Source of the DNA: Eledone cirrhosa
Taxonomy: Eukaryota
Direction of reading: 5' to 3'
NCBI GenBank assembly: GCA_964016885.1
Contig: OZ024743.1
Location: 324,942,001 to 325,006,000, forward strand
DNA length: 64,000 nt
Part shown: positions 15,901-30,900 of the stretch, piece by piece
How the letters are laid out: every line of letters starts with the position of its first letter
Numbering within the stretch: position 1 is the stretch's first letter
Made by a program: the position numbers and the translations under genes
Notes under the pieces: generated by a model
Databases searched by the model: none
What the model was told of the DNA's origin: nothing
What the model saw: the letters and a program-made list of their open reading frames with translations, nothing else

Positions 15901-18900
15901 GAATTCAAGTTACATATTGTCACTGCAGATGGCTGTTATCTACAGTATACATGGTCCTGGGACACTGTTGTTAGTGATGATGATGTTGTGGCTGTCATTG
16001 ATGGAGGTATGTTATGATTCTTTTTGGCTTTTTTAACCACTTTACAAGGTGTACTGGGTGTATTATATCGTAACACCAGCACTAACACTTTACAAGGTGT
16101 ACTGGGTGTATTATATCGTAACACCAGCACTAATGCTTTACAAGGTGTACTGGGTGTATTTTATCGTAACACCAGCATTAATGCTTTACAAGGTGTACTG
16201 GGTGTATTTTATCGTAACACCTGCATTAACGCTTTACAAGGTGTACTGGGTGTATTATATCGTAACAGCAGCACTAACACTTTACAAGGTGTACTGGGTG
16301 TATTATATCGTAACACCAGCACTAATGCTTTACAAGGTGTACTGGGTGTATTATATCGTAACACCAGCACTAACACTTTACAAGGTGTACTGGGTGTATT
16401 TTATCGTAACAGCAGCACTAACACTTTACAAGGTGTACTGGGTGTATTTTATCGTAACACCAGCACTAACACTTTACAAGGTGTACTGGGTGTATTATAT
16501 CGTAACAGCAGCACTAACACTTTACAAGGTGTACTGGGTGTATTATATCGTAACAGCAGCACTAACACTTTACAAGGTGTACTGGGTGTATTATATCGTA
16601 ACAGCAGCACTAACACTTTACAAGGTGTACTGGGTGTATTTTATCGTAACACCTGCACTAATGCTTTACAAGGTGTACTGGGTGTATTTTATCGTAACAC
16701 CTGCACTAATGCTTTACAAGGTGTACTGGGTGTATTTTATCGTAACACCTGCACTAATGCTTTACAAGGTGTACTGGGTGTATTTTATCGTAACACCAGC
16801 ACTAACACTTTACAAGGTGTACTGGGTGTATTTTATCGTAACACCTGCACTAACGCTTTACAAGGTGTACTGGGTGTATTTTATCGTAACACCTGCATTA
16901 ACGCTTTACAAGGTGTACTGGGTGTATTATATCGTAACACCAGCACTAACGCTTTACAAGGTGTACTGGGTGTATTATATCGTAACACCAGCATTAACGC
17001 TTTACAAGGTGTACTGGGTGTATTTTATCGTAACACCAGCACTAACACTTTACAAGGTGTACTGGGTGTATTATATCGTAACACCAGCACTAACGCTTTA
17101 CAAGGTGTACTGGGTGTATTATATCGTAACACCAGCACTAACACTTTACAAGGTGTACTGGGTGTATTATATCGTAACACCAGCACTAACGCTTTACAAG
17201 GTGTACTGGGTGTATTATATCGTAACACCAGCACTAACACTTTACAAGGTGTACTGGGTGTATTATATCGTAACACCAGCATTAACGCTTTACAAGGTGT
17301 ACTGGGTGTATTATATCGTAACACCAGCACTAACACTTTACAAGGTGTACTGGGTGTATTTTATCGTAACACCTGCATTAACGCTTTACAAGGTGTACTG
17401 GGTGTATTATATCGTAACACCAGCACTAACGCTTTACAAGGTGTACTGGGTGTATTATATCGTAACACCAGCATTAACGCTTTACAAGGTGTACTGGGTG
17501 TATTTTATCGTAACACCAGCACTAACACTTTACAAGGTGTACTGGGTGTATTATATCGTAACACCAGCACTAACGCTTTACAAGGTGTACTGGGTGTATT
17601 ATATCGTAACACCAGCACTAACGCTTTACAAGGTGTACTGGGTGTATTATATCGTAACACCAGCACTAACACTTTACAAGGTGTACTGGGTGTATTATAT
17701 CGTAACACCAGCACTAACGCTTTACAAGGTGTACTGGGTGTATTATATCGTAACACCAGCACTAACGCTTTACAAGGTGTACTGGGTGTATTATATCGTA
17801 ACACCTGCATTAACACTTTACAAGGTGTACTGGGTGTATTTTATCGTAACACCAGCACTAACGCTTTACAAGGTGTACTGGGTGTATTATATCGTAACAC
17901 CAGCACTAACGCTTTACAAGGTGTACTGGGTGTATTATATCGTAACACCAGCACTAACGCTTTACAAGGTGTACTGGGTGTATTATATCGTAACACCTGC
18001 ATTAACACTTTACAAGGTGTACTGGGTGTATTTTATCGTAACACCTGCATTAATGCTTTACAAGGTGTACTGGGTGTATTTTATCGTAACACCAGCACTA
18101 ATGCTTTACAAGGTGTACTGGGTGTATTTTATCGTAACACCTGCATTAACGCTTTACAAGGTGTACTGGGTGTATTATATCGTAACACCTGCATTAATGC
18201 TTTACAAGGTGTACTGGGTGTATTTTATCGTAACACCAGCACTAATGCTTTACAAGGTGTACTGGGTGTATTTTATCGTAACACCTGCATTAACGCTTTA
18301 CAAGGTGTACTGGGTGTATTATATCGTAACACCTGCATTAATGCTTTACAAGGTGTACTGGGTGTATTTTATCGTAACACCAGCACTAATGCTTTACAAG
18401 GTGTACTGGGTGTATTATATCGTAACACCTGCATTAACACTTTACAAGGTGTACTGGGTGTATTATATCGTAACACCAGCACTAACACTTTACAAGGTGT
18501 ACTGGGTGTATTATATCGTAACACCAGCATTAACACTTTACAAGGTGTACTGGGTGTATTATATCGTAACACCAGCACTAACACTTTACAAGGTGTACTG
18601 GGTGTATTATATCGTAACACCAACACTAACACTTTACAAGGTGTACTGGGTGTATTATATCGTAACACCAGCACTAACACTTTACAAGGTGTACTGGGTG
18701 TATTTTATCGTAACACCTGCACTAACGCTTTACAAGGTGTACTGGGTGTATTTTATCGTAACACCAGCACTAACACTTTACAAGGTGTACTGGGTGTATT
18801 TTATCGTAACACCAGCACTAACACTTTACAAGGTGTACTGGGTGTATTATATCGTAACACCAGCATTAACGCTTTACAAGGTGTACTGGGTGTATTTTAT

Positions 18901-27900: not shown

Positions 27901-30900
27901 CAAGGTGTACTGGGTGTATTATATCGTAACACCAGCATTAACACTTTACAAGGTGTACTGGGTGTATTTTATCGTAACACCAGCACTAATGCTTTACAAG
28001 GTGTACTGGGTGTATTTTATCGTAACACCAGCACTAACGCTTTACAAGGTGTACTGGGTGTATTTTATCGTAACACCTGCATTAACACTTTACAAGGTGT
28101 ACTGGGTGTATTTTATCGTAACACCAGCATTAATGCTTTACAAGGTGTACTGGGTGTATTTTATCGTAACACCTGCATTAACGCTTTACAAGGTGTACTG
28201 GGTGTATTTTATCGTAACACCAGCACTAATGCTTTACAAGGTGTACTGGGTGTATTATATCGTAACACCTGCATTAACGCTTTACAAGGTGTACTGGGTG
28301 TATTTTATCGTAACACCAGCATTAATGCTTTACAAGGTGTACTGGGTGTATTTTATCGTAACACCTGCATTAACGCTTTACAAGGTGTACTGGGTGTATT
28401 TTATCGTAACACCAGCACTAATGCTTTACAAGGTGTACTGGGTGTATTATATCGTAACACCTGCATTAACGCTTTACAAGGTGTACTGGGTGTATTTTAT
28501 CGTAACACCAGCATTAATGCTTTACAAGGTGTACTGGGTGTATTTTATCGTAACACCTGCATTAACGCTTTACAAGGTGTACTGGGTGTATTTTATCGTA
28601 ACACCTGCATTAACGCTTTACAAGGTGTACTGGGTGTATTTTATCGTAACACCTGCATTAACGCTTTACAAGGTGTACTGGGTGTATTTTATCGTAACAG
28701 CAGCACTAACACTTTACAAGGTGTACTGGGTGTATTTTATCGTAACACCTGCACTAACGCTTTACAAGGTGTACTGGGTGTATTATATCGTAACACCTGC
28801 ATTAACGCTTTACAAGGTGTACTGGGTGTATTTTATCGTAACACCTGCATTAACACTTTACAAGGTGTACTGGGTGTATTTTATCGTAACACCAGCACTA
28901 ACACTTTACAAGGTGTACTGGGTGTATTTTATCGTAACACCTGCATTAACGCTTTACAAGGTGTACTGGGTGTATTATATCGTAACACCAGCATTAATGC
29001 TTTACAAGGTGTACTGGGTGTATTTTATCGTAACACCTGCATTAACGCTTTACAAGGTGTACTGGGTGTATTTTATCGTAACACCTGCACTAACGCTTTA
29101 CAAGGTGTACTGGGTGTATTTTATCGTAACACCTGTATTAACGCTTTACAAGGTGTACTGGGTGTATTTTATCGTAACACCTGCATTAACGCTTTACAAG
29201 GTGTACTGGGTGTATTTTATCGTAACACCTGCACTAACGCTTTACAAGGTGTACTGGGTGTATTTTATCGTAACACCTGCATTAACGCTTTACAAGGTGT
29301 ACTGGGTGTATTTTATCGTAACACCTGCATTAACGCTTTACAAGGTGTACTGGGTGTATTTTATCGTAACACCTGCATTAACACTTTACAAGGTGTACTG
29401 GGTGTATTTTATCGTAACAGCAGCACTAACACTTTACAAGGTGTACTGGGTGTATTTTATCGTAACACCTGCATTAACGCTTTACTAGGTGTACTGGGTG
29501 TATTATATCGTAACACCAGCATTAATGCTTTACAAGGTGTACTGGGTGTATTTTATCGTAACACCTGCATTAACGCTTTACAAGGTGTACTGGGTGTATT
29601 TTATCGTAACACCTGCACTAACGCTTTACAAGGTGTACTGGGTGTATTTTATCGTAACACCTGCATTAACGCTTTACAAGGTGTACTGGGTGTATTTTAT
29701 CGTAACACCTGCATTAACGCTTTACAAGGTGTACTGGGTGTATTTTATCGTAACACCTGCACTAACGCTTTACAAGGTGTACTGGGTGTATTTTATCGTA
29801 ACACCTGCATTAACGCTTTACAAGGTGTACTGGGTGTATTTTATCGTAACACCTGCATTAACGCTTTACAAGGTGTACTGGGTGTATTTTATCGTAACAC
29901 CTGCATTAACACTTTACAAGGTGTACTGGATGTATTTTATCGTAACACCAGCATTAACGCTTTACAAGGTGTACTGGGTGTATTTTATCGTAACACCAGC
30001 ACTAACGCTTTACAAGGTGTACTGGGTGTATTTTATCGTAACGCCAGCACTAATGCTTTACAAGGTGTACTGGGTGTATTTTATCGTAACACCTGCATTA
30101 ACGCTTTACAAGGTGCCCTGGGTGTATTTTATCGTAACACCTGCATTAATGCTTTACAAGGTGTACTGGGTGTATTTTATCGTAACACCTGCATTAACGC
30201 TTTACAAGGTGTACTGGGTGTATTTTATCGTAACACCTGCATTAATGCTTTACAAGGTGTACTGGGTGTATTTTATCGTAACACCTGCATTAATGCTTTA
30301 CAAGGTGTACTGGGTGTATTTTATCGTAACACCAGCATTAATGCTTTACAAGGTGTACTGGGTGTATTTTATCGTAACACCTGCATTAATGCTTTACAAG
30401 GTGTACTGGGTGTATTTTATCGTAACACCTGCATTAATGCTTTACAAGGTGTACTGGGTGTATTTTATCGTAACACCTGCATTAATGCTTTACAAGGTGT
30501 ACTGGGTGTATTTTATCGTAACACCAGCATTAATGCTTTACAAGGTGTACTGGGTGTATTTTATCATAACACCTGCATTAACGCTTTACAAGGTGTACTG
30601 GGTGTATTTTATCATAACACCAGCACTAACGCTTTACAAGGTGTACTGGGTGTATTTTATCGTAACACCAGCACTAACAATTTCGAAAGTGTACTGGGTA
30701 CATTTTATTCTGGCACCAGCAATTACACTTTACAGAGTCTATGGAGTGCATTACATCATAATGCTAGCACTAACCCTTTACAGGGTATACTGGGTGAATT
30801 TTATTGTAACACCAGTACTAGTGAGGTTACCTTAAATCTTGCAAGACTAAACAGTCCTCACCACTGAACATTGTCTATATTTATTCAAGATTCAATTAGT

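What the first reader, a model, noticed from the sequence alone, without database searches (positions are those of the whole stretch)
16036..30870. A 14.8-kb intronic satellite apparently born from the 3' UTR repeat of an RTE LINE, with intermediate stages in the same window
Seen: the monomer reverse complement GTGTTAGTGCTGGTGTTACGATAAAATACACCCAGTACACCTTGTAAA aligns with the RTE 3' UTR unit GTGGTCGTGGAGGTGCCACGGCAAAAAAGCACCCAGCCCACACTGTAAA (36731-36779), which is itself present about twice in the LINE. Related short arrays occur at ~270, 4085, 4790, 49320, 56620, 61020 and 63370. The giant array ends in the same flank as the short ones (CAGTACTAGTGAGG...CAAGACTAAACAGTCCTC at ~30815-30860 vs 4320-4370). 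Inference: RTE or RTE-tailed SINE retroposition seeds a unit that expands locally from 2 to ~300 copies, acting as a dispersed satellite generator.
Basis: partly seen in the sequence, partly recalled or inferred. Interest (0 to 1): 0.74.

Follow-up and report, generated by a model that had tools for sequence, protein, structure and literature searches.

The report
LINE tail repeat swells ELP1 intron
A 48-base repeat copied 308 times fills 99% of a spliced intron of the ELP1 gene and matches a short repeat that a common jumping-gene family carries two or three times in its tail; it likely grew on the spot from an old broken copy, as likely happened separately at many other copies in this genome, which is a known route to satellite DNA.

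Summary
The array is real: 308 units of 48 bp, filling 14,782 of the 14,961 bases of an ELP1 intron that a transcript-like contig splices out. The unit is homologous to a tandem unit in the 3' UTR of RTE-type LINEs. The parent is an older LINE subfamily, not the LINE at 33.5-37 kb. The shared flank is that subfamily's upstream 3' UTR, not the tail, and this array lacks the tail. Copies with 2-4 units are the element's normal state, not growth stages. Growth was local: a 35-base diagnostic occurs only here, the unit is closest to this locus's own first unit, and two exact block duplications (70 and 52 units) lie inside. Independent arrays of up to 501 units sit on other copies, some with both ends intact. 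This works like Ogre 3'-UTR satellites and reptile SINE-derived satellites; my searches found no paper on it for RTE or cephalopods. The scan reported the same phenomenon at least six times on other DNA of this genome. Unexplained: long arrays of the old lineage nearly all share one variant base, which did not replicate in a younger lineage.

The parts
16036..30817 (-). 48-bp tandem array, 308 units, antisense to ELP1
30676..30817 (-). three diverged units at the element's 5' side (likely remnant of the native seed); the first is the closest relative of the expanded unit
17769..24488 (.). exact block duplication inside the array: 69 identical units at a lag of 70 units (3,360 bp)
24009..28712 (.). 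exact block duplication inside the array: 46 identical units at a lag of 52 units (2,496 bp)
15794..16006 (+). ELP1 exon upstream of the array (Pfam PF04762)
16007..30967 (+). ELP1 intron, GT..AG, 14,961 bases, 98.8% array; array begins 29 bases after the donor
30968..31168 (+). ELP1 exon downstream of the array
33571..36693 (+). younger RTE-type LINE, single endonuclease-RT-PHD frame with one in-frame stop; relative, not parent, of the array
36731..36826 (+). two tandem units in that LINE's 3' UTR, homologous to the array unit
36827..36995 (+). LINE distal tail ending in (ATG)n
4111..4430 (-). old-subfamily copy: proximal UTR plus about 4 locally homogenised units (94% matches), no tail
274..557 (+). 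3 units plus tail
4682..4923 (-). 3 units plus tail
39564..39888 (+). old-subfamily 3' end with proximal UTR, unit and tail in order
49185..49585 (-). 6 units plus tail
56486..56992 (-). 8 units plus tail
57723..58113 (+). tRNA-like SINE (head and core recognised from recall) ending in two units and the LINE tail
61038..61359 (-). 7 units, no tail found
63375..63593 (-). 5 units, no tail found

Best explanation
The array is a 308-unit satellite inside a spliced ELP1 intron that likely grew in place from the short tandem repeat in the 3' UTR of an old, 5'-truncated RTE-type LINE copy inserted antisense to the gene. Steps: (1) LINEs of this group carry 2-3 units between a proximal UTR and a distal tail (shown). 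(2) A truncated old-subfamily copy landed in this intron before the split from organism B (flank and first unit at the same place: shown; retrotransposition: inferred). (3) A unit related to this copy's own first unit was multiplied and shuffled by slippage, unequal exchange and conversion (pattern shown; process inferred), lately in jumps of 70 and 52 units. (4) The distal tail was lost or never copied (absence shown). (5) The same happens independently at a small share of the many other copies. The array is likely a passenger without function.
For: Unit homology. Flank is directly downstream of an RT C-terminus on the same strand in 6 of 30 flank-found loci and upstream of 2-3 units and the tail. 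A 35-base diagnostic has 297 matches in the genome and 297 in the window. The expanded unit differs from this locus's first unit at 5 of 43 fixed columns; none of 98 old units elsewhere is closer than 7. Nine of 10 pairs of variable columns show all four combinations, and two exact block duplications are present. Organism B holds the flank and first unit in the same intron. Other arrays keep their LINE ends: 97 units with flank and tail, 501 units with tail, 18 units inside a 93%-identical copy of the window's LINE. In 400 kb of evenly spaced sample, 19 of 32 unit loci have the tail next to them; reversed control 0. Tails of 17 arrays of 5 or more units form no clade (15 changes, shuffled mean 16.1).
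Against: No tail and no target-site duplication could be shown at this locus. None of the 9 loci with this array's own flank variant has an RT hit directly upstream, so the link to a coding LINE runs through the related flank variant. 16 of 23 arrays of 30 or more units lack a tail, and majority units of arrays on unrelated tails are 90% alike (inflated by how the loci were found), which local growth alone does not predict. The tail tree is poorly resolved. Array length was not checked in reads.
Confidence: 0.8

Rival explanations
1. The unit came from a LINE UTR once or a few times, then spread between loci as a satellite in its own right (ectopic conversion or reinsertion of circles), often landing on or converting existing LINE remnants.
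For: Most long arrays lack both LINE ends; long arrays on different chromosomes are 93-95% identical over 301 bases; their majority units converge on one variant while their tails are only 62% alike; L150 joins two unit types in one array.
Against: For this array the diagnostic sequence is unique and the unit matches its own seed; arrays of 97 and 501 units carry private changes and LINE ends; the between-locus identity is biased because loci were found by similarity.
Confidence: 0.12
2. Long arrays were copied as long arrays by retrotransposition from a master LINE or SINE that already had many units.
For: Several 5-10-unit arrays have diverged units that all share the same variant base, as if inherited from a longer master.
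Against: No second locus shares this array's diagnostic; tails of expanded copies form no clade; the block duplications are internal.
Confidence: 0.04
3. The array exists but its length is inflated by assembly error, the two exact block duplications being artefacts.
For: Blocks of 69 and 46 units are letter-identical; no read spanning the array was seen.
Against: Even without both blocks about 186 units remain, with a gradient of variants along the array; contigs of organism A confirm the right junction; many other multi-kb arrays are assembled.
Confidence: 0.04

Closest known systems
Satellites from 3'-UTR tandem repeats of Ogre LTR retrotransposons (Lathyrus sativus FabTR families, PMC7004042, passages seen; pea PisTR-A, cited in PMC9659126, passages seen)
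   Same: Short native tandem array at a fixed place downstream of the coding region; a continuum from short to long arrays; only a few copies expand.
   Different: Here the donor is a non-LTR LINE in an animal; this array lies in a gene intron and similar arrays are concentrated on small chromosomes, whereas Ogre arrays expanded mainly in primary constrictions.
SINE-derived satellites (sSats) of squamate reptiles (PMC10702118; abstract and Discussion read)
   Same: Many loci; one terminal part of the element often kept; up to about 1000 units; long loci converge on one or a few variants and are alike within and between loci; longer loci unevenly placed on chromosomes.
   Different: Units here are native to the LINE's 3' UTR and shared by several subfamilies, rather than new duplications of SINE parts.
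Common cetacean satellite (L1 3' end) and Drosophila HeT-A 3'-derived satellite (both as cited in PMC9659126, passages seen; originals not read)
   Same: Satellite monomer similar to the 3' non-coding end of a non-LTR element.
   Different: As cited, these are single satellite families; recurrent in-place expansion at many insertions is not described in the passages seen.
Octopus RTE-2_OV (PMC9115989, passages seen)
   Same: Single-ORF RTE-clade LINE of similar size in a cephalopod.
   Different: Its 3' UTR is described as mostly microsatellite; the word 'tandem' does not occur in the paper. Identity with the window's LINE was not tested.

Membership tests
Retrotransposon 3'-UTR-derived satellite (Ogre type) | short tandem array at a fixed position downstream of the element's coding region | tested here: met
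Retrotransposon 3'-UTR-derived satellite (Ogre type) | size continuum from native short arrays to multi-kb arrays with element sequence attached | tested here: met
   1 to 501 units; flank and/or tail kept in some
Retrotransposon 3'-UTR-derived satellite (Ogre type) | element older than the expansion | tested here: inconclusive
   UTR remnant and first unit shared with organism B, units only 4.9% apart; whether B has the long array could not be seen
Retrotransposon 3'-UTR-derived satellite (Ogre type) | donor is an Ogre/Tat LTR element and expansion is mainly pericentromeric | tested here: not met
   donor is a non-LTR LINE; this array is intronic; so it works like, but is not, an Ogre satellite
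RTE-clade LINE (donor) | single frame with apurinic-type endonuclease and reverse transcriptase, short-repeat 3' end | tested here: met
   homologues are single proteins of about 1,040-1,100 aa
RTE-clade LINE (donor) | RT phylogeny with named RTE references | not tested
RTE-clade LINE (donor) | target-site duplication at the seed insertion | tested here: inconclusive
   the 3' end of the seed copy is missing, so no pair could be sought
Satellite DNA in the classical sense | long homogenised head-to-tail array | tested here: met
   14.8 kb, 96% to majority unit
Satellite DNA in the classical sense | heterochromatic state | not testable with these tools
   no chromatin data
SINE-derived satellite (sSat) | unit and terminal part derive from a SINE | tested here: not met
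   the flank joins an RT C-terminus, not a SINE head, in 6 of 30 loci; the window's SINE carries a different unit type

The most novel reading that the evidence does not exclude
Expansion is sequence-selective: among very many near-identical seeds planted by one old LINE lineage, those that grow to kilobases converge on one unit variant (A at unit position 22 with an intact 12-base core) although they sit on unrelated insertions, which would point to a cis-acting instability motif or to conversion between distant loci and would make this genome a replicated natural experiment on which repeats become satellites.
Probability: 0.25. Interest if true: 0.7.

Novelty: new member of a known kind. Interest (0 to 1): 0.47.

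Why it matters
Why some short tandem repeats become satellites and most do not is open. Here one LINE group has planted the same seed at very many places (32 loci in 400 kb sampled), across subfamilies of different age, and a minority grew 10- to 100-fold. Seed sequence, age, chromosome and neighbourhood can be compared directly. The locus also shows an intron of a conserved gene enlarged about 40-fold (my estimate, from a 3-4-unit seed) and still spliced. The route itself, transposon repeat to satellite, is already known.

Tried and rejected
Window's LINE as direct parent: rejected (flank absent from it; unit only 67% identical). Coding role for the 4,949-aa stop-free frame 16018-30867: rejected, it follows from a stop-free 48-base unit and the region is spliced out. 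Strong hairpin as the cause of instability: not supported; single units fold with z of -0.2 to -1.9 and one at +0.4. A22 as a general requirement for expansion: rejected by my own replication in a younger unit lineage, where the G form has 12,482 matches against 1,775 and forms clusters of 1.4 to 27 kb (listings only, not fetched). A22 arrays as one subfamily: no support from tails, low power. Two pairs of G hits spaced like arrays turned out to be separate short copies. Tail remnant in the 29 bases before the array: no hit. Copy number from reads: not obtainable; only contigs and RAD-seq were on hand, and no RNA holder was listed. Literature searches found no paper on RTE 3'-UTR satellites or cephalopod satellites of this kind; subscription papers, Repbase/Dfam entries and supplements were not seen and could hold this unit.

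Full report
The array. Tandem Repeats Finder gives period 48, 307.9 copies, 95% matches at 16040-30820; a profile counts 308 units at 16036-30817. There are 31 unit variants among 302 units cut, with five common variable columns and a mean pairwise difference of 2.3 of 48. Two letter-identical blocks lie inside: 69 units at a lag of 70 and 46 units at a lag of 52. Nine of ten pairs of variable columns show all four combinations, and one column changes frequency along the array, as expected from unequal exchange and conversion between neighbours (inference).

The host gene. The exon before the array matches Pfam PF04762, ELP1. One 3,662-base contig of run X4 matches 15794-16006 and continues at 30966-31168 with no letters between, so the GT..AG intron 16007-30967 (14,961 bases) is spliced out whole. 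X4's kind is not on record; I read it as a transcript from this pattern. The array runs antisense and starts 29 bases after the donor. The genome (3.0 Gb) is likely an octopod's; that rests on recall and on earlier notes, not on a test.

Link to a LINE. The element at 33571-36693 has one endonuclease-RT-PHD frame with one in-frame stop, two tandem units at 36731-36826, a tail and (ATG)n. Array unit and LINE unit are 33 of 49 identical. A global test over all rotations and strands beat 300 of 300 shuffles; a local test was only modest (21 and 30 of 3000; 10 of 500 against the whole LINE). A profile made from 57 units outside the window finds both LINE units (E 1.6e-6, 7.9e-5) and nothing in the reversed LINE. 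The RTE label fits the architecture, but no named reference was available.

What the flank is. The flank at 30818-30885 aligns with four of five tested window copies (0 or 1 of 1000 shuffles; the copy at 40862 failed) and not with the window LINE's 3' end (182 of 500). In 30 loci found with the 4316-4420 flank, an RT C-terminus ends 30-180 bases upstream on the same strand in 6 (L037, L041, L046, L053, L055, L059); downstream come mostly 2-3 units and the tail. So the flank is the proximal 3' UTR of an older subfamily whose copies are about 80% alike. The array's own flank is a variant; in 9 loci with that variant no RT hit lay directly upstream. The tail profile finds nothing at the array's other end.

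Local origin. A 35-base array diagnostic has 297 matches in the genome and 297 in the window. Next to the flank are three diverged units. The expanded unit differs from the first of them at 5 of 43 fixed columns; none of 98 old units from other loci comes closer than 7, and a two-base feature shared by both occurs in 2 of 98. A contig of organism B (run X5) has the same flank at the same distance from the exon and continues into a unit with that feature, so the insertion predates the split; whether B has a long array cannot be seen.

Genome-wide picture. Forty evenly spaced 10-kb stretches of C1-C6 hold 32 unit loci: 23 single, 7 double, one of 5, one of 6; 19 have a tail beside them; the reversed control gave no hit. 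A unit-unit junction motif has 3,068 matches, only about 100 of them on the two largest chromosomes. In a similarity search, 18 of about 30 array loci (my count) lay on three small chromosomes, C25-C27. Fetched arrays reach 229, 251 or more, and 501 units. One of 97 units keeps flank and tail, the 501-unit one keeps the tail, and an 18-unit array sits in a 93%-identical copy of the window's own LINE between its RT end and tail. Tail retention among uncut arrays in all fetched loci: 50 of 103 (1 unit), 71 of 85 (2-4), 14 of 25 (5-9), 9 of 22 (10-29), 7 of 23 (30 or more) (these loci were found in mixed ways). Thus 2-4 units is the native state, and the short arrays in the window are separate insertions, a few locally enlarged.

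An unexplained bias. At unit position 22, old copies mostly have G (A in 20 of 98; 28 of the first 100 tail-adjacent matches, my count), yet all 13 clusters among the first 100 junction matches were mostly A (my count). On the first 215 Mb of C1, 4 of about 39 A loci but none of about 88 G loci reach 30 units (36 G loci fetched, the largest 21 units; Fisher p 0.007 on the rough counts 4/37 and 0/89, threshold chosen afterwards). This array has A while its seed units have T, G, G. Tails of 17 such arrays form no clade and are as far apart as those of short copies (62%), while their units are 90% alike (partly an effect of how loci were found; tree poorly resolved). Against a general rule: in a younger unit lineage the G form dominates (12,482 against 1,775 matches) and forms clusters up to 27 kb, and units fold no better than shuffles by much. 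Convergence of long loci on one variant is also described for reptile sSats (PMC10702118, Discussion).

Mechanism. Shown: unit homology, position in the UTR, local uniqueness, block duplications, recurrence at other copies. Inferred: insertion by target-primed reverse transcription with 5' truncation; growth by slippage and unequal exchange; loss of the tail; no function. Confidence 0.8. Spread between loci remains a possible contributor for tail-less arrays elsewhere.

Known work. The closest cases are Ogre 3'-UTR satellites (PMC7004042, passages) and squamate sSats (PMC10702118, abstract and Discussion); PMC9659126 (passages and its table in part) lists L1- and HeT-A-derived cases and does not hold the word RTE. 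PMC9115989 (passages), PMC4758252 (passages) and PMC13282606 (first third) describe cephalopod or mollusc elements without this repeat in what I saw. Seven searches found no report for RTE or cephalopods; repeat databases, subscription papers and supplements were not seen. The scan's own notes report the same phenomenon at six other loci of this genome and gave me the two main papers; I did not check their loci. Two further look-ups returned nothing.

Verdict. A real, well-resolved example of a known route from transposon repeat to satellite, in a donor family and animal group for which I found no report. New member of a known kind; interest 0.47.

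Noticed in passing
L121:8965, L115:2850-4114, L122:2861, L135:3876, L120:3147-3479, window 16036: Several tail-less arrays end within about 10-75 bases of what look like splice sites (by eye); no control was run.
   Followed up: partly
L115:2850-4114: The first units of this array include the apparent splice-donor sequence itself, repeated with the unit.
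   Followed up: no
L125:4287-5282; L005, L006, L042: A longer unit of about 120 bases (proximal UTR plus one 48-base unit) also forms tandem arrays, 9 copies in L125.
   Followed up: partly
L150:4569-5776: One array joins old-type units to younger-type units next to a younger-type tail.
   Followed up: no
G000:C1:50667291-50753868: Matches of the younger unit type spread over about 87 kb, likely a very large array with higher-order periods; not fetched.
   Followed up: no
window 7951-10824: A second LINE with an uninterrupted 957-aa endonuclease-RT frame and a preceding 287-aa frame, in another ELP1 intron; clade not tested.
   Followed up: partly
window 32250-32982: Unrelated 42-base minisatellite, about 16 copies, right after an exon.
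   Followed up: no
window 40166-40606: Diverged 50-base tandem repeat, about 9 copies.
   Followed up: no
window 54290-54660 and 56090-56455: A roughly 370-base direct repeat, nearly identical, around a 1.8-kb stretch; possibly the two ends of a mobile element (by eye).
   Followed up: no
window 57100-57230: A SINE with the LINE tail has inserted into an older unit array, splitting 56617-56992 from 57230-57400.
   Followed up: no
window 46550-46850 and 10790-11110: Short fragments of the 3' end of the 7951-10824 LINE occur elsewhere in the window, with a 130-base duplication.
   Followed up: no
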